From a candidate division WOR-3 bacterium (GTDB lineage Bacteria > Hydrothermota > Hydrothermia > B15-G9 > WFZT01): DNA of 18,625 nt. Position 1 is the stretch's first letter, and the number at the start of each line of letters is the position of its first letter. The DNA lies in contig JALUEE010000014.1 in assembly GCA_027053075.1 (NCBI GenBank), positions 1 through 18,625 of the forward strand, given 5' to 3'. Under the pieces are notes generated by a model, which saw nothing but the letters and a program-made list of their open reading frames with translations, ran no database searches and was not told the DNA's origin. This document shows, one piece after another, positions 285-8,957 of the stretch. The position numbers were made by a program, and so were the translations under genes.

Positions 285-1031
285 TTATTTAATGGGGATT
301 CTCAACGATGTTACAGGCTTAACTATTACTCCCGTTATTTCCGCAAGTTTTTCTACAGTTTCAATAAATTCTTTCAATCCCTGAGGTGATTGCGCATTAA
401 CAACAATACTCACATCACTCACCCCGGTAGTAAAGTTGATGTCCATAACCTTAAAATTACTACTCAAATTAGTATTTGGGAGTAGTGCAAGGAGCTTAAA
501 GAAACCTTTAACTCCGTACTCTTGATTCCATGGTAATGTATTTTTGACATATTTTTCAAACCTGAATAATTCTTTCATTTTGCCCAATGTTGCTTTGTAT
601 CTATGAATGTAAAATTTGTTATCTACATTTATCTCAGGTTTTTCTCGGTTTTTTAACTCCTCCGTCCCAATTTTCATAATTATGATATCATCTTCGCTAA
701 TCCTAATCCTTTCTTTGGGTACTTGAATTGATATATCAATCTTGCCTGTTGATCCCATAAGATTCAAAAACACTTTTTTCCCGCAAACGTCAAACACAAC
801 CTTTCCATTCAAATTTCTTTTGTGAGATTCAATGTAAAATAGTTGTGGATCCGGGTTGCACTTAACCACAGTGTCTTTTGATACTGATAATTCAACTTTT
901 CGATAACCATCAGAAACAGGTGTATCATAAAAATAACAATTCATAAATAAGTCTCTGTACTTATTTAAATCAACATAGAACTCATCCTTTCCAACTACGT
1001 ATAATCTCGTCAGAAAATCTATATTAGACAT
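285..1031 (-). CDS. hypothetical protein (248 aa) with possible C-terminal Lrp/AsnC ligand-binding (RAM)-like domain
   Basis: Long ORF whose start overlaps the stop of the 811-aa gene by 8 nt. C-terminal VMDINFTTGVSDVSIVVNAQSPQGLKEFIETVEKLAEITGVIVKPVTSL resembles the AsnC pattern vtG-D-v-a-s-l-fi-i-GV-T. Confidence 0.8.
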   Translation of the reverse strand: MSNIDFLTRLYVVGKDEFYVDLNKYRDLFMNCYFYDTPVSDGYRKVELSVSKDTVVKCNPDPQLFYIESHKRNLNGKVVFDVCGKKVFLNLMGSTGKIDISIQVPKERIRISEDDIIIMKIGTEELKNREKPEINVDNKFYIHRYKATLGKMKELFRFEKYVKNTLPWNQEYGVKGFFKLLALLPNTNLSSNFKVMDINFTTGVSDVSIVVNAQSPQGLKEFIETVEKLAEITGVIVKPVTSLRIPIK

Positions 1032-3459
1032 TACTTCCCCTATTATGATGTTCGAAATATTCGAAAGGAATCAATATATATGTGTCGGATCTATTTACAT
1101 ATTCAAATAATTTAATGAACTTATTGAATTTTTTTAGGCTTTCCCAATTTGTTATCAAGAGAAATGATATATTGGGCCATGAAGAACTTCTAAGGCATAA
1201 GTGTTTCTTTATCTTCATCACGCTATCAGACCCATTCCCCATCCCAAGCAGAATTCTTTTTATCTCTTCAAGCACTCTTTGACCTTCAGATGATGGAAAA
1301 TGCGAATCATACCTCATTCTTATCCATAATAATATATCATCCGATGATATCGCATTCAAAAACTCCTCCAGTTTCGTTATCTTTGTGGAATTTACTATTT
1401 CTTTTACATCTACAATGATATTCTCTGAATATAAAGTCCAATATTTGTCGGTCAAAAATTTGGTCCCTTCCTCACCTCTTTTACGCTTTATATTTTCGTC
1501 GATCTTTCTACATTTTGATTTTTCTATAACCTTACTTCTGAATAATAGTTCATCAATTGCTTCATGATGTCCTATAAAAAATAGTGAGTAATGGCCAAGG
1601 GACCAAAATATTTTGAAATCTCCCGTACCTTGTTTCTTTATAAATTTGCTATCTAATGGGAATCTTGATAAGTAATGTTGAGCATCTATTGCTAAGATAC
1701 TCAGTAATTCAAAATTTCTGAAAAATTTCCTATCCTTATTGATATGATCGGATTCGGCGTATCTGTTCAAATCAACATTTTCATCAAAAGTATGTATAAC
1801 ACGAGATATTTTTGAATTAATATTAATGTGCTGTTGAAAATACTCCTCAAGCTCATTACAATCAATCCTATTTTTTTTGTTATTATAATTTTCCTTCTTT
1901 TTGCTACAATTCTCTAAATAATTTACTCTTTGGTACATTCTATCAAAAAAGATACCAAATGCTACTAGCGGAAAGAGAGCCTTTGCGAATCTCCTATCTA
2001 TTTTATTTTCAATTAATTCTTCTTTATTTTTAATTAATTCTTCAACAACTTCCAATGCAATGTTTGTGTGGATAATTTCCAGATTCTTAAGTTCATCAAT
2101 CAACCTGATGATAGTACTCTCATTATTCCTTTTACTTTGAATAATGTCAAATGCAAAAAGATTAAAAGAATTTTCTAAATCTTTTATTGGATGCTTATCA
2201 ATTTTAAATGTTTCTCCGAACAATTCTGCCACTTTATAACTTACAAGTTTTGCCGAAGTTTGAATTCCATCGTAAACAAATTCAGCTGATACACTCGGTC
2301 TAGAAAAAGTTGTTTTGATTATCTGATATAATATCTCGCTTTCATAATAAATGTCTTCTTTAAACTTTTTTAAATTTTTACAATCCTCTCCCTTACAGTT
2401 ATCCGGCATATCTTTAAACACATCAATTAGAACTCTAAATCTCAATATCTCTTTAAATCTGGAAAAGTCCAGCTCATTATAAGAAAGCTTAGACGGAGCC
2501 CTTGGGTCATTCCCCATTGGAGAAAAATCCTGATGGGCTAAACCAGATGAAATCTTAGGATTTAACAGAATTGATAAAACGAAGTATACATAATAGTAAA
2601 TTCCTCCATATAGAAACCCCACGATATCAGCAAGGATTTCGTTAGTAATACTTTTACTGAAGTAATACGTAAACCCTCCCACAGCTCCAAGGTGAAGCTC
2701 TATGATTTCTAAAAGTTGACTGTACAAAGAATCTAACAGTCTATATAATTTCCTTAATTTCGGCAGCCTTTCGGGTATCTGAGAGTTGATAATAAGTATC
2801 TCTGCTAACTCGTGATACAGGGAAACAGACTGCTGGAACCAAAACAAGTTCCACACTGGTAAAGAAATTTCCGAGAATATTTTCTCGGAATCCTGTTCTC
2901 CTAATTTAATACTGGGATTGGCCTTTGCAGATATTATCTGTTCCCATGTTAGTAGAAGGTCGAATCTCCCGTATGGTAGGACCTCCATTACATTTTCGAC
3001 TATTTCTCTCCACAGTGCACTTGTCTTAATTGCGCTCATTCTCGCGAACCGTCTTGGAATTAGTGGAAACAATGCAAGGGAGTCTATTCTACGATCTAAA
3101 AATCTATGCACTGTCTGTATATCTTTAAATGTGGTATAAATTAAAAAATTTGATTCAGCAATTTGATCTAAATAACGGGCCTTTTGGGAGTAAAAATCAT
3201 CCCCAAGATTTTTTTCAATATCATTACTCATGTTTTCTATGCTCCCACGTAATTGTTCCCACTCGGAAAGCCTTTTCTCGACTAACCTTATAACATCAAA
3301 TGAGGAAGCTCTTTTGGGGATAGCCCCTGGAAACGCATAAAGATAGTTAAAAAGGGATTCCAGATAAGATAACCTGAGTATCACTTCATTAGTTGTTCTT
3401 TTTAAGAACCACGTTGAAGTGTATGGTATATATAACATCCCCTCTTTTGAATTTTGCAT
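1024..3459 (-). CDS. hypothetical protein (811 aa); N-terminal zincin-like region with degenerate HExxH, C-terminal ferredoxin/RAM-like segments
   Basis: 2.4-kb ORF with AAGGAG RBS. Contains ISLPVW...LYHELAE (H216) and NEILADIVGFLYGG (E274), FWSLGHYSLFFI, and terminal ESLKKFNKFIKLFEYVNRSDTYILIP. The CDS is solid; the domain call is by eye. Confidence 0.85.
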   Translation of the reverse strand: MQNSKEGMLYIPYTSTWFLKRTTNEVILRLSYLESLFNYLYAFPGAIPKRASSFDVIRLVEKRLSEWEQLRGSIENMSNDIEKNLGDDFYSQKARYLDQIAESNFLIYTTFKDIQTVHRFLDRRIDSLALFPLIPRRFARMSAIKTSALWREIVENVMEVLPYGRFDLLLTWEQIISAKANPSIKLGEQDSEKIFSEISLPVWNLFWFQQSVSLYHELAEILIINSQIPERLPKLRKLYRLLDSLYSQLLEIIELHLGAVGGFTYYFSKSITNEILADIVGFLYGGIYYYVYFVLSILLNPKISSGLAHQDFSPMGNDPRAPSKLSYNELDFSRFKEILRFRVLIDVFKDMPDNCKGEDCKNLKKFKEDIYYESEILYQIIKTTFSRPSVSAEFVYDGIQTSAKLVSYKVAELFGETFKIDKHPIKDLENSFNLFAFDIIQSKRNNESTIIRLIDELKNLEIIHTNIALEVVEELIKNKEELIENKIDRRFAKALFPLVAFGIFFDRMYQRVNYLENCSKKKENYNNKKNRIDCNELEEYFQQHININSKISRVIHTFDENVDLNRYAESDHINKDRKFFRNFELLSILAIDAQHYLSRFPLDSKFIKKQGTGDFKIFWSLGHYSLFFIGHHEAIDELLFRSKVIEKSKCRKIDENIKRKRGEEGTKFLTDKYWTLYSENIIVDVKEIVNSTKITKLEEFLNAISSDDILLWIRMRYDSHFPSSEGQRVLEEIKRILLGMGNGSDSVMKIKKHLCLRSSSWPNISFLLITNWESLKKFNKFIKLFEYVNRSDTYILIPFEYFEHHNRGSNV

Positions 3460-3486
3460 AAATCAAACTCCTTTAATAATTAACCA

Positions 3487-4272
3487 TCAAAAGTAATAAA
3501 AAAGGTGTTGAATGTTGTCCACAAAAAACAATTTCAAAAGATGCCAATATTCCTGTATCGATCTAAGTAAAATCTTTAAATGTTTAAAAGAAACTACCAT
3601 TAACAAAATAGATATTATCATAAAATATATTTGCTTAATAAAATATACACGAGGCCCCATTTCTGATAATAACTGGGACAAATACTTTTCGTTAAGTATG
3701 TCCTTATATAACAACTTATGGAATGAGTTATTACTCAATTCTTCAATATTCATAGATTTAGGAAGTTCTAAGACCTTTATGATATCTTTTGGCTTTCTAA
3801 ATCGTACAAAATACCATGAATCAAATAAATGTGAGATATGTTTTATTATAAGAAAGATACCGTCATGTAAAAACATGCGGTTCATTAAGTCATAAGATTT
3901 CATAACTACAATTATAACCCGATTTTTGTTCTCCTTAACCCTTGGATCTTCAATAGAAAATATTATCCAGGGAGATCTAACAATAGGAGGGACCTTGACA
4001 CGATAGTGAAGAACCAGGTTTAAAACAGATCTGGACTGCACACATGTAAAATACATTCTTGGCAAACCTACTACCTCTACGGGGTTTGAGGAAACATGAA
4101 TTCCACGCACGATCACTGCGGTCAGAAATATTGACCGCACTTTGCGAAGAATCAAATCTTTCGGTATATAATCTTCTACACTACGCTCAATTTCTTTTGG
4201 CAAAAAATAAACAGTTATACCTGTCTCATCTAATGAATTTAAATTCTGTGGAGGATATTTAAGGTACTCCAT
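3487..4272 (-). CDS. hypothetical protein (~261 aa) with a C-terminal hydrophobic helix
   Basis: Long ORF in AT-rich DNA filling the gap between two co-oriented genes. ATG at 4272 (alternative TTG at 4278), 10 nt after the upstream stop. Hydrophobic segment IYFMIISILLMVVSF. Confidence 0.7.
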   Translation of the reverse strand: MEYLKYPPQNLNSLDETGITVYFLPKEIERSVEDYIPKDLILRKVRSIFLTAVIVRGIHVSSNPVEVVGLPRMYFTCVQSRSVLNLVLHYRVKVPPIVRSPWIIFSIEDPRVKENKNRVIIVVMKSYDLMNRMFLHDGIFLIIKHISHLFDSWYFVRFRKPKDIIKVLELPKSMNIEELSNNSFHKLLYKDILNEKYLSQLLSEMGPRVYFIKQIYFMIISILLMVVSFKHLKILLRSIQEYWHLLKLFFVDNIQHLFYYF

Positions 4273-4282
4273 TGGCAACTTT

Positions 4283-5618: not shown

Positions 5619-5718
5619 CAAAAATTACATCATAAGGAGGTTTGTCCCGTCCTGATATATGTTTACAGTACAACAGTCACCATGGATGATTATAAAACTT
5701 TTAAAGGAGGTCACTTTT

Positions 5719-6120
5719 ATGCCTAATAACAACAAAAATTACACCGAAGCCCTAAAACTTAAGGTTATTAGAGAATTCGAGGCCGGCGCCTCTATTGGTC
5801 ATTTACGCAGAAAATACGGAATCGGTGGTAATTCCACTATTCAAAAATGGATAAATAAATACAGTCACAAGGCTCCAAAAACATCAAAAATTAAAACAGA
5901 CAACCAGGAACAAGTGGAAAGGTTAAAAGAGAGAATAGCTCAACTTGAGAAGGCTGTATTGAATCTAACAGTAGAGAAGCTGGTTCTTGAGAGCACATTA
6001 GAGGTGTATGAGGAAGAGTATGGAGCGAGATTAGGTCAAAAAAAGAACGCAGATCATCGAGAAGGCGAAGCAGAAAGGAAAGGGAGAGAAAATAAAGATG
6101 GGAGCTATATGCAGAGTTAA
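5719..6120 (+). CDS. IS3-family transposase OrfA (HTH plus leucine-zipper-like coiled coil)
   Basis: AAGGAGG (5704-5710) before ATG 5719. YTEALKLKVIREFEAGASIGHLRRKYGIGGNSTIQKWINKY is an IS3-type HTH. Confidence 0.9.
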   Translation: MPNNNKNYTEALKLKVIREFEAGASIGHLRRKYGIGGNSTIQKWINKYSHKAPKTSKIKTDNQEQVERLKERIAQLEKAVLNLTVEKLVLESTLEVYEEEYGARLGQKKNADHREGEAERKGRENKDGSYMQS

Positions 6121-6949
6121 AGGTATAAGTCGGCAGGCGCATTATCAGAAGAGGCGCAGAGAGGAGGGCAAGAGGGCAGAGGAAGAGAAGATATTAACGA
6201 TGGTAAGGATGATACGAAGGCGGCATCCATATGTGGGGGTGAGGAAATTACTTGTGAAGATGAAACCGATGATGGATCAGGAGGGTATAAAAATAGGTAG
6301 GGACAGGTTATTTGAGCTGATGAGGGCGAATGATTTACTTGTGAAGAGAAGGAGGCGTAAGAACAGGACGACGTGGCCAGGGATGAAGCGGATGTCGAAC
6401 CTATTGGTGGGAGAGGTGATAGACAGGCCGAACAAGGTGTGGGTAGCGGATATAACCTACATAGAGATGGGTGGTGGTGGATTCAGATATCTGTTTATAG
6501 TGATGGACTTATACAGCAGGAAGGTAGTGGGGTGGAGTTTGGGCAAGACACTGGAATGGGGTAACGCGTTGGCAGCATTGGAGATGGCAGTGGAGAATGC
6601 AGGGGGTGAGGTGAAGGGGCTAATACATCACAGCGATCATGGCAGTCAATACACTAGCAGGGGGTATTTGGAGTATTTGAGTAGAAATGGTATGAGGGCA
6701 AGCATGGGTGAAGTTGGGGATGCATACGACAATGCGTACGCGGAGAGGGTGGTGGGGACGTTAAAGAGGGAATACGGATTGGGGGAAGTATTCAAGAGTG
6801 GGATAGAGGTAGCGGTGGGAGAAGCGATAGAGTTGTACAATGAGGAGAGGCCGCATCAATCGTTGGGGTATGCGACGCCGAGCGAGGTGTATAGAGGGGA
6901 AGTAGAGATAGAGGGATTTAAGGTGAAGATAGGGGGTAGAACATGCTGA
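6098..6949 (+). CDS. IS3-family transposase OrfB (integrase-like DDE domain); frame is open from 6035
   Basis: Motifs PNKVWVADITYI, HHSDHGSQY, DNAYAERVVGTLKREY, YNEERPHQSLGYATP. Confidence 0.95.
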   Translation: MGAICRVKGISRQAHYQKRRREEGKRAEEEKILTMVRMIRRRHPYVGVRKLLVKMKPMMDQEGIKIGRDRLFELMRANDLLVKRRRRKNRTTWPGMKRMSNLLVGEVIDRPNKVWVADITYIEMGGGGFRYLFIVMDLYSRKVVGWSLGKTLEWGNALAALEMAVENAGGEVKGLIHHSDHGSQYTSRGYLEYLSRNGMRASMGEVGDAYDNAYAERVVGTLKREYGLGEVFKSGIEVAVGEAIELYNEERPHQSLGYATPSEVYRGEVEIEGFKVKIGGRTC

Positions 6950-7086
6950 GGGGAGTCCCCCTTTTAAGTGTCAACATATTTCAGGACTTGACAGTGAAAT
7001 TTCCTAAAAATTTAATGGCACATAATTCCTCAAACACATTTCCACTAAACTGATCTTGTTCGAAAATTCCTCCCCCTCCTCTCCTC

Positions 7087-7113: not shown

Positions 7114-7293
7114 AGATAACAATAATGTTTGTCAAGATTGACAACAACAGTATCATAAAATTTGATATCGTTATTATTGTAAAACTTTGATGCCACTGCC
7201 TTCTATGGTCTTTGTGATTTTTGACAATATTATGCCCCTCTCTAACCTGCTATCAAGCTGGACAAAATCTGAATTTTTTTCTTTCCTTCCCGC

Positions 7294-8589
7294 CTAAAAT
7301 ATGTTTATATCTATCTCATCACTTTCCGTTGGACGTTGTGCCCTTGTCTCCACCCCCGCCATCTCCATCCTTCTCATCGCCATCTCTTCTCCCCTCCTTA
7401 TACCTTCCATCGCCTTCTCCAAACTCCACTCCTCTCCGCTAACCGCTATCGCATACACTATCTCCGCTAATTTCCTCGCTACCGCCCCTCCCGCTGCCCT
7501 CTTGCTCTTACCACGCCTCAATAACCTCTCATAATACGCCCTTATCTGCGGATTCGTCCTCCTCGCACTCACACCCGCTAGCAAAAATGCCATCTTCAAC
7601 ATCCTGTTCCCCTTGTTCGTCATCTTCCCCCTCCTTCGCATATCACCACTCTCCCACACCGTAGGATACAACCCACAATACCCCACAAATTTCTTCTTGC
7701 TCCTGAACCTCCGCTTTATGTCCCCTGCCTCCGCTATTATCACTCCCGCTGTCACCCAGCCTATCCCCGGTATGCTCGTTATCTTGCACTCCGAATAGTA
7801 TTCCTCAACTATCTCCTTCACTTCCCTGTCTATCTCCTTTATCACTCCATCGATCTCCAATATCTGCCTCACTATTGTCTTTATTATCAGCATCTCCGCC
7901 TCTCTTAATTCCTGTATCGGTGCACTCCTCGCTACCTCCATTACCTTCCTGACTATGCTCCTCCTTATTTTCTGCCTACCAACCCTTATCTTCATTAATT
8001 CCTCTTCCCCAGCTCCCAGTATTAAATGGGGTGATGGAAATCTCTGGAGTATGTAAAGAAAACCAAGAGGCAACCCACTCTTCACCAGAATCCTGTATCC
8101 AGGGAAATAAATTCTCAGTATGTGGTACAATTGATTCTTTAAAGAGGCCTTGTTCTCTATGAAGGTACGTCTTGTGCGAACAAGATGACGCAGGCGTTGG
8201 AGGAAGAGGGGAACGTGATAGTCTCCCTGAGGTTTGATAGTGGCCAGGTAGCGGGCTATAATTTGAGCATCGATACGGTCGGTTTTGGCACTGACGTTGA
8301 GTGCTTTAGCGAAGTAACGGACGGATGCGGGATTGAGTTGATGTACTTCAATGTTATCCATGGCTTCGAGGGTGTGTAGGATACCGATATGGAAGTCACC
8401 GGTAGATTCGAGGCCGCAGACGATTTTATAGTTTTTGGAGAGTGAGGAGATGAGTTGGGAGAACTCATGCCAGCCATCAGGGGTATTAGGGTATTTAGCG
8501 GAGGATATGACGGGGTGTAAATTATCATCGAAGAAGGAGGCGAATAGTTCTTTTGAGCTTACGTCTATACCAACGTATAAAGTATCCAT
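7294..8589 (-). CDS. IS110-family transposase/recombinase (DEDD RuvC-like domain plus Tnp domain)
   Basis: AGGAGG RBS. YVGIDVS, GLESTG and KTDRIDA supply DEDD. SIPGIG and YCGLYPTVWESG carry the conserved serine. Confidence 0.96.
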   Translation of the reverse strand: MDTLYVGIDVSSKELFASFFDDNLHPVISSAKYPNTPDGWHEFSQLISSLSKNYKIVCGLESTGDFHIGILHTLEAMDNIEVHQLNPASVRYFAKALNVSAKTDRIDAQIIARYLATIKPQGDYHVPLFLQRLRHLVRTRRTFIENKASLKNQLYHILRIYFPGYRILVKSGLPLGFLYILQRFPSPHLILGAGEEELMKIRVGRQKIRRSIVRKVMEVARSAPIQELREAEMLIIKTIVRQILEIDGVIKEIDREVKEIVEEYYSECKITSIPGIGWVTAGVIIAEAGDIKRRFRSKKKFVGYCGLYPTVWESGDMRRRGKMTNKGNRMLKMAFLLAGVSARRTNPQIRAYYERLLRRGKSKRAAGGAVARKLAEIVYAIAVSGEEWSLEKAMEGIRRGEEMAMRRMEMAGVETRAQRPTESDEIDINIF

Positions 8590-8613
8590 AATGCACCTCC
8601 TGTTTTTTTTATT

Positions 8614-8793
8614 GGGAGGAGATGGAGAGTGGGAGCCTCCACCGAATGGGGTATAGCCTAACCTTCTGAATGGAGTGATTTTTTACACGAATAACAATCC
8701 AGGCTTATACCCCAGGTGGAGGGACCAATCTCCCCCTCGGGGTCATGCCCCAGGACCAAGGCCGGTCTCCACCCACTCATACCATCTCCTCCC
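8614..8793 (-). ncRNA. putative IS110 bridge RNA (two internal loops within a closing stem)
   Basis: Nested complementary segments: 8614-8625/8782-8793 (12 bp), 8627-8633/8772-8778, 8636-8643/8715-8722, 8647-8655/8706-8714, 8656-8659/8701-8704, 8723-8726/8764-8767, 8739-8742/8748-8751. Loop segments match the element's junction sequences. Confidence 0.78.
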
Positions 8794-8928
8794 GAAGTGT
8801 TTTCCCTATATTTTTAGTGATAACCATCATAAATAACAACAAACATTATAGAAGGAACAAGGTGGGGGGTAAATTTTTCCTCAAAAATCAAAGAATTTGA
8901 GATTTTTTCAAACAGGCTCTCACTAAAC

Positions 8929-8957
8929 TTGACTCTAATGGTGATATTTGTTATTAT
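8929..8957 (+). promoter_or_regulatory. upstream sigma70-type promoter for the ArsR gene
   Basis: TTGACT (8929-8934), 17 bp, TATTAT (8952-8957), with an extended -10 TG at 8949-8950. Confidence 0.55.

What the first reader, a model, noticed from the sequence alone, without database searches (positions are those of the whole stretch)
8614..8860. IS110 bridge-RNA candidate with all four guide segments readable from the sequence
Seen (element sense = minus strand): empty target = ccaCCTTG-TT-ATCTCCCCC; circle donor = cattATTGTT-CCTTCTataat. The non-coding left end folds into two stem/internal-loop arms. Arm 1: CCUUG (8761-8757) equals the left target flank, and GGGGGAGAU (8736-8728) is the reverse complement of the right target flank ATCTCCCCC (7117-7109), 9/9. 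Arm 2: AUUGUU (within 8698-8691) equals the left donor, and AGAAGG (8667-8662) is the reverse complement of the right donor CCTTCT (8855-8850). Established: this same-sense-left / reverse-complement-right layout, target loop first and donor loop second, is the logic of IS621-type bridge RNAs. Inference: an intact programmable RNA-guided recombinase with a predictable target. The class is known; this member and its specificity may not be.
Basis: partly seen in the sequence, partly recalled or inferred. Interest (0 to 1): 0.85.

Follow-up and report, generated by a model that had tools for sequence, protein, structure and literature searches.

The report
IS110 bridge-RNA element targeting hairpin repeats

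Summary
Real, but misregistered. The window holds a 1,737-bp IS110 element (minus strand, 8852-7116) with an intact 431-aa recombinase and a bridge-RNA-like left end. Empty copies of the landing site in the genome and in three other runs put the core at CT, not TT. The guides are therefore LTG 8760-8752 (8/9), RTG 8736-8730 (7/7), LDG 8698-8690 and RDG 8667-8663. All four matches together occurred in 0 of 20,000 shuffles. A second variant in the same genome has other loops, other targets and a matched donor/RDG change; relatives at 40-49% identity keep the fold with compensatory pairs. Against a simply predictable target: 3 of 5 copies with this loop fit the left guide poorly in register, and all 12 right junctions abut a DNA hairpin. 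Unusual: an 11-bp subterminal inverted repeat on a left-end-type element. Expression and activity are untested. New member of a known kind.

The parts
7116..8852 (-). IS110-family element, 1,737 bp, between two copies of the CT core
   Evidence: empty sites in genome, joints in 3 of 4 runs, second full copy on contig C98 99.1% identical
8853..8854 (-). CT core, left junction
   Evidence: 13 of 14 left junctions in the genome have CT here
7114..7115 (-). CT core, right junction
   Evidence: 12 of 12 right junctions in the genome
7294..8589 (-). IS110 recombinase, 431 aa; D9, E61, D104, D107, S314
   Evidence: PF01548 and PF02371; NF033542 235.7 bits, cut-off 140; residues invariant in 30 of 30 aligned proteins; aligns with IS621 and ISCro4 chains
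8590..8852 (-). non-coding left end, 263 nt
8614..8793 (-). predicted bridge RNA body: target and donor arms enclosed by a long stem (8793-8782 with 8625-8614); transcript ends unknown
   Evidence: fold; the closing stem has a compensatory change in variant B; arms supported across 14 sequences
8752..8760 (-). left target guide CUUGGUCCU, 8 of 9 to left target plus core
8730..8736 (-). right target guide GGGGGAG, 7 of 7 to core plus right target
8728..8729 (-). target-loop handshake AU, complementary to donor positions 6-7
   Evidence: defined in PMC11208158
8690..8698 (-). left donor guide AUUGUUAU(U): 8 of 8 to 7123-7116, then U opposite the core C (wobble; C in L002 and L021)
8663..8667 (-). 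right donor guide AGAAG, 5 of 5 to core plus first 3 nt of the left end
   Evidence: AGGAG with donor CTCCT in variant B
8661..8662 (-). donor-loop handshake GU: G complements target position 7; U does not complement position 6
   Evidence: sequence
8845..8850 (-). -10 box TATAAT
7130..7135 (-). -35 box TTGACA; would sit 18 nt from the -10 box in the circle
   Evidence: rebuilt junction; 17 nt in 5 of 5 distant relatives
8839..8849 (-). 11-bp subterminal inverted repeat, left copy, 3 nt inside the end
7122..7132 (-). 11-bp subterminal inverted repeat, right copy, 6 nt inside the end
7116..7293 (-). non-coding right end, 178 nt
8855..8919 (-). left half of the interrupted ~125-bp target repeat (left target at 8861-8855)
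   Evidence: uninterrupted copies elsewhere in the genome
7052..7113 (-). right half of the target repeat: C-rich/G-rich hairpin whose 5' arm is the right target
8921..8929 (-). 9-bp direct repeat flanking the target repeat, left copy
7043..7051 (-). 9-bp direct repeat flanking the target repeat, right copy

Best explanation
This is an intact IS110-group insertion sequence that likely moves by bridge-RNA-guided recombination at a CT core into C-rich hairpin repeats. Shown: boundaries, core, intact catalytic residues, four guide-like matches with handshake bases, conserved two-arm fold, and variants whose loops track their donors and targets. Inferred from IS621: the element forms a circle; joining the ends builds a TTGACA-18-TATAAT promoter; the left end is transcribed; the recombinase binds the RNA; the donor loop reads the circle junction and the target loop reads the left target, core and right target; handshake bases pair with the opposite DNA after top-strand exchange. 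Inferred from the copies: the right guide is read strictly, the left guide loosely and perhaps in either of two registers one base apart, and the target hairpin probably assists, as reported for ISPpu10.
For: Core and ends. Enzyme. Four matches in 0 of 20,000 shuffles. Donor covariation: donor CTTCT with guide AGAAG in variant A; CTCCT with AGGAG in variant B (loop seen in C23, C89, L020) and in 5 of 5 distant relatives with both ends; their left donor and guide change together in L032. Target covariation: 9 B left flanks fit the B guide at 6-9 of 9 Watson-Crick positions (one-base-shifted register) and the A guide at 3-6; right-target position 10 is C in 4 of 4 junctions that fit the A guide 7/7 and T in the other 8, as the A and B guides predict. 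In G004, L008 has a third loop fitting its flank at 8 of 9 plus a wobble (read). A loop variant seen as a loose end in runs X2 and X6 equals the odd flank of C89 at 9 of 9. Fold: 23 pairs, 97.8% of cells paired, 12 pairs with two-sided change, slid controls 29-52%. Hairpin: 12 of 12 right junctions.
Against: Three of 5 A copies fit the left guide at 2-4 of 9 in register; the one-base shift that raises them to 7-9 of 9 (wobbles counted) was chosen after the fact, and 69 of 292 hairpin sites reach 8 or more that way. The exact guide-predicted A target has 0 copies in the genome. L021 (6 of 9) and L002 (7 of 9, after discounting 3 extra bases) fit loosely. With wobbles the A right guide fits B targets at 5-7 of 7. 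No contig holds both ends of variant B, so its end pairing is by elimination. The pairs counted were taken from the fold of the same alignment, and two clades supply most changes. The protein-free fold closes the target loop.
Confidence: 0.85

Rival explanations
1. The element is RNA-guided, but sites are chosen mainly by the right guide plus the DNA hairpin (half-match or structure-led), the left guide adding little; the target is then not predictable from the loops alone.
For: Poor in-register left fits in 3 of 5 A copies and imprecise left junctions in 2 of them; 8 of 8 B right junctions lie in hairpins against 626 of 6,977 genome sites with that 5-mer; half-match insertion and a stem-loop gate are reported for IS621 and ISPpu10.
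Against: B left flanks follow the B left guide closely; L008 and the C89-type loop track their flanks; hairpin and left-flank sequence come together in the repeats, so the hairpin count is confounded; for A the hairpin background is 292 of 557.
Confidence: 0.3
2. One reading: TT core, with the AT and the C assigned to target and donor as written.
For: The strings match when read against the post-insertion junctions.
Against: 0 empty sites of that form against 4 exact CT-core sites; joints in 3 runs; 12 of 12 right ends share the AT whatever the flank.
Confidence: 0.01
3. The element is a dead relic whose guides no longer act.
For: The exact guide-predicted target is absent from the genome; activity was not measured.
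Against: Open frame with all catalytic residues; left end 100% identical over the aligned part in 5 copies at different sites; two full copies differ at 15 of 1,737 bases, all in the middle of the gene.
Confidence: 0.12
4. It is an IS1111-type element, with its guide RNA in the right end, as the 11-bp subterminal repeats would suggest.
For: Perfect 11-bp repeats, the length typical of IS1111; a 178-nt right end.
Against: All four guides lie in the left end; left end longer than right; repeat offsets are 3 left / 6 right, the mirror of IS1111's 6-7 left / 3 right; 431 aa is outside the 330-350 aa IS1111 range; relatives have only 3-4-bp repeats. The right end was folded but not searched for guides.
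Confidence: 0.03

Closest known systems
IS621 bridge recombinase (Durrant 2024, PMC11208160; Hiraizumi 2024, PMC11208158)
   Same: DEDD plus serine enzyme, CT core, left-end RNA with target loop then donor loop, guide polarity, handshake bases, junction promoter, insertion into an intergenic palindromic repeat.
   Different: 431 aa against 326, distant in sequence (E 1.6e-22); natural 7-nt right target guide against 4; both arms predicted inside a closing stem; 11-bp subterminal repeat against 2-3 bp.
ISPpu10 (bioRxiv 10.64898/2026.03.19.712850)
   Same: CT core, tolerant left guide, strict right guide, target carrying a stem-loop.
   Different: The stem-loop is on the left-target side there and on the right-target side here; sequence relationship not tested.
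IS1111-group elements (Siddiquee 2024, PMC11187229)
   Same: 11-bp perfect subterminal inverted repeats with asymmetric 3 and 6 nt extensions.
   Different: Extensions are mirrored relative to the gene; guide RNA is upstream; enzyme is longer. That paper already notes exceptions on both sides.
Long IS110-subgroup elements such as IS110 and IS900
   Same: Enzyme length in the 395-455 aa range. Distant relatives of this element insert at ribosome-binding sites, which I recall as IS900's habit.
   Different: No direct comparison was run; nearest annotated plasmid IS110 proteins are only about 30% identical. The IS900 habit is recalled; the passages read say only that its hed frame lacks its own RBS and start codon.
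BoxC / TMECO triplex-motif repeats (Holder 2015, PMC4666352)
   Same: C-rich arm, loop, G-rich arm and second G-rich run; the consensus begins with the core and right target read here.
   Different: Longer stem, and embedded in a ~125-bp unit with terminal inverted repeats and 8-10-bp flanking duplications; that paper found no mobile elements at TMECO sites in E. coli. Resemblance only.

Membership tests
IS110 family bridge recombinases | RuvC-like DEDD domain plus Tnp domain with catalytic serine | tested here: met
IS110 family bridge recombinases | No target duplication beyond a shared core dinucleotide | tested here: met
   1,739-bp skip with 2-nt ambiguity
IS110 family bridge recombinases | Non-coding end folding into two arms with internal loops | tested here: met
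   caveat: target loop closed in the single-sequence fold
IS110 family bridge recombinases | LTG, RTG, LDG, RDG complementary to target and donor across the core | tested here: met
   left target guide loose in several copies
IS110 family bridge recombinases | Handshake bases complementary to the opposite DNA at positions 6-7 | tested here: met
   2 of 2 in the target loop, 1 of 2 in the donor loop; position facing donor base 7 is A in 5 of 5 distant relatives
IS110 family bridge recombinases | Promoter formed across the circle junction | tested here: met
   consensus -35 and -10 with 18-nt spacing in the rebuilt junction; sequence only
IS110 family bridge recombinases | Circular intermediate exists | tested here: inconclusive
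   no such joint listed in contigs of 4 runs; contigs drop rare forms
IS110 family bridge recombinases | RNA is expressed, binds the enzyme and programs recombination | not testable with these tools
   needs RNA data and an assay
IS110 group (as against IS1111) | Guide RNA and longer non-coding end on the left | tested here: met
   263 against 178 nt; guides at 8760-8661
IS110 group (as against IS1111) | Subterminal inverted repeat absent or short | tested here: not met
   perfect 11 bp; so filed under the IS110 family, with IS110-group layout but not as a typical group member
IS110 group (as against IS1111) | Enzyme falls in the IS110 branch of a reference tree | not tested
   no reference set at hand; length fits the 395-455 aa subgroup
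IS1111 group | Subterminal repeats of 7-17 bp | tested here: met
   11 bp
IS1111 group | Extensions of 6-7 bp left and 3 bp right; guide RNA downstream; 330-350 aa enzyme | tested here: not met
   3 left / 6 right, guides upstream, 431 aa

The most novel reading that the evidence does not exclude
This lineage is natural reprogramming caught in the act: from ancestors that aim at ribosome-binding sites, it has re-aimed at BoxC-like hairpins, split into co-resident variants with separate target and donor codes, reads its left guide in either of two registers, needs a right-side DNA hairpin as a gate, and has independently gained IS1111-length subterminal repeats in mirror geometry. From a vent habitat, it could also be a heat-tolerant bridge recombinase.
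Probability: 0.25. Interest if true: 0.6.

Novelty: new member of a known kind. Interest (0 to 1): 0.38.

Why it matters
Bridge recombinases are a young genome-editing class, and each well-bounded natural member adds rules. This one offers a native 7-nt right guide with a full target-loop handshake, two or more loop variants in one genome with mapped sites, a test of hairpin gating on the right side, and a case where long subterminal repeats occur with a left-end RNA. None of this changes the known mechanism.

Tried and rejected
TT-core boundary model: rejected. Rfam at gathering threshold: 0 matches in the window. RNA evidence: no RNA holder listed among 14 runs; no bearing either way. Circle junction: not among the listed joints in 4 runs of contigs; no bearing. 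A closer look at loop variants in further runs was not obtained, so the frequency of loop variants in the population is open. The search for related loci with the single protein found nothing; the alignment gave 20 loci, of which 7 distinct left ends went into alignment A2 (3 more were further copies of L026; the other 10 lacked the left-end pattern or were more remote). Metagenome pattern scan: only 2 loci. Genome searches: close relatives only in G004 among 60 other genomes, no intermediate relatives among 272 of the phylum at E 1e-40, so when the long repeat arose is not dated. Autonomous partner of the ~125-bp repeat: no long frame between its end motifs; the one IS256-type gene has one stop and an end that agrees only in its first bases. 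Literature: 'IS110'+'BoxC' gave 6 papers, the 5 listed irrelevant; 'IS900'+'bridge RNA' gave 0; the IS900 ribosome-site searches gave listings only, apart from PMC8141618. ISfinder could not be searched, and supplements were not opened; the large orthologue tables of PMC11208160 may already hold this element or a close relative.

Full report
Setting. The window is the whole contig C14 of a 2.44-Mb draft genome. The stretch also lies in hydrothermal-vent metagenome runs, three of which were laid (X1, X2, X9); the best holder may be the source itself. The finding is the non-coding end upstream of a minus-strand frame, 8589-7294, 431 aa, with both IS110 Pfam domains and NF033542 above its cut-off. 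D9, E61, D104, D107 and S314 are invariant in 30 aligned proteins and line up with the IS621 catalytic residues; L336, L337 and V340 face the IS621 wedge (alignment, read by eye; residues from PMC11208158 passages).

Boundaries. The genome holds many uninterrupted copies of the repeat that the element splits (87 hits to the rebuilt site, partial ones included). They fix the ends. Three of four runs show the same joint. All 12 right ends in the genome end in the same way and are followed by CT; 13 of 14 left ends are preceded by CT. The element is 8852-7116, with CT at 8854-8853 and 7115-7114.

Guides. With these ends the map becomes the published one (PMC11208160 sections 7 and 12; PMC11208158 passages). 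Left target guide 8760-8752 equals left target plus core at 8 of 9. Right target guide 8736-8730 is the reverse complement of core plus right target, 7 of 7. Left donor guide 8698-8691 equals the last 8 nt of the right end. Right donor guide 8667-8663 is the reverse complement of core plus the first three bases of the left end. All four matches together were seen in 0 of 20,000 shuffles. The rebuilt circle junction carries consensus -35 and -10 boxes 18 nt apart; a weaker -35 from the target flank exists in the integrated state.

Covariation. The genome has 5 left ends of the window's type (A) and 9 of a second type (B), classed by their first 60 nt, outside the loops. B has CTCCT as right donor and AGGAG as guide, where A has CTTCT and AGAAG; the B donor loop is visible in two contigs and in L020. 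B left flanks fit the B left guide at 9, 9, 8, 8, 8, 8, 7, 7 and 6 of 9, in a register one base 5' of A's, and the A guide at 3-6. Of 12 right junctions, 4 fit the A guide 7/7 and the B guide 4/7; the other 8 have T at position 10 as the B guide requires. B's two ends never share a contig, so the pairing is by elimination. A same-genus genome adds two more loops, one fitting its flank at 8 of 9 plus a wobble. Seven distant left ends (enzymes 40-49% identical) keep the CT core, a 188-192-nt distance to the right donor guide and the two-arm fold: 97.8% of cells paired, 12 of 23 pairs with two-sided changes, 0 and 1 of 500 shuffles, slid controls 29-52%. I counted 23 of the 30 predicted pairs, leaving out those inside the donor loop and a long-range triplet; the structure came from this alignment and two clades dominate it.

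Limits of predictability. Only 2 of 5 A copies fit the left guide well in register; the other three score 2-4 of 9, and two of them carry extra bases at the left junction. Shifting the guide one base lifts them to 7, 8 and 9 of 9 with wobbles, but this is after the fact and a quarter of hairpin sites reach 8 or more that way. Six empty sites carry the window's own 14-nt target; none carries the exact guide-predicted one. Every right junction begins the 5' arm of a hairpin: 8 of 8 for B against 9% of genome sites with that 5-mer, 4 of 4 for A against 52%. A tolerant left guide, strict right guide and helpful stem-loop are reported for ISPpu10 (abstract and section 8), and half-match insertion for IS621 (abstract and section 8).

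The target repeat. Here it lies in a ~125-bp unit with inverted ends; 6 of 9 strict-pattern copies have a flanking direct repeat of 8-10 bp, and the window's copy has 9 bp, as a miniature transposon would. Its mobiliser was not found.

What is unusual. A perfect 11-bp inverted repeat lies 3 nt inside the left end and 6 nt inside the right. Five distant relatives with both ends have 3-4 bp at the matching place; the extra 7 bp would arise by chance about 5 times in 100,000. IS1111 elements have 11-13-bp repeats with the mirror offsets and a downstream RNA; IS110-type elements are described as lacking them, with exceptions noted (PMC11187229 passages and section 6; PMC11208160 section 12). In the distant relatives 7 of 7 junctions (4 from one genome) cut a ribosome-binding site 4-10 nt before an ATG on the other strand, and the element's left end rebuilds AGGAG, which suggests the ancestral target; direction of change was not tested on a tree.

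Other papers seen: PMC13626964, abstract and outline; ISPpu9 preprint, passages; PMC8141618, passages. No supplements were opened and ISfinder was not available, so that this member is undescribed rests only on the absence of close named proteins and on the searches.

Verdict. The element is real and very likely works like IS621. New member of a known kind, with a few variant features; interest 0.38.

Noticed in passing
L023, L026, L027, L029, L032, L035, L036 (left junctions): Distant relatives insert into Shine-Dalgarno sites 4-10 nt before an ATG on the opposite strand, 7 of 7 junctions; the element's left end rebuilds AGGAG, so the host gene would keep a ribosome site.
   Followed up: partly
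G000 C98, C22; L002; also L029, L032: Left junctions with extra bases between target and element (one T; TCT twice; possibly a doubled CT), perhaps from register slippage or repeated insertion.
   Followed up: partly
G000 C33:137130-137300: Orphan copy of the bridge-RNA region, 69% identical, with no IS110 gene on the contig by tblastn; its right target guide is locked in a perfect 30-bp palindrome.
   Followed up: partly
G000, 57 ends on many contigs (e.g. C29:12448, C50:11652): A second family of short elements with CTGAC-type inverted ends often inserts in the same hairpin repeats.
   Followed up: no
window 8234-8262 (+): Promoter-like site, 11 of 12, inside the recombinase gene pointing antisense towards the left end; kept in 6 of 8 loci compared (the other two gave no hit), but it overlaps the conserved catalytic motif.
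   Followed up: partly
window 8621-8614 and 8601-8596 (-): The 3' arm of the closing stem could instead pair with the recombinase's own ribosome-binding site, a possible translational switch.
   Followed up: no
window 5659-6949 (+): An IS3-family element (two overlapping frames; NF033516 above cut-off) lies about 100 bp from the target repeat.
   Followed up: no
window 285-4278 (-): Low-GC stretch (29-38%) with frames of 248, 811 and 263 aa that have no Pfam match.
   Followed up: no
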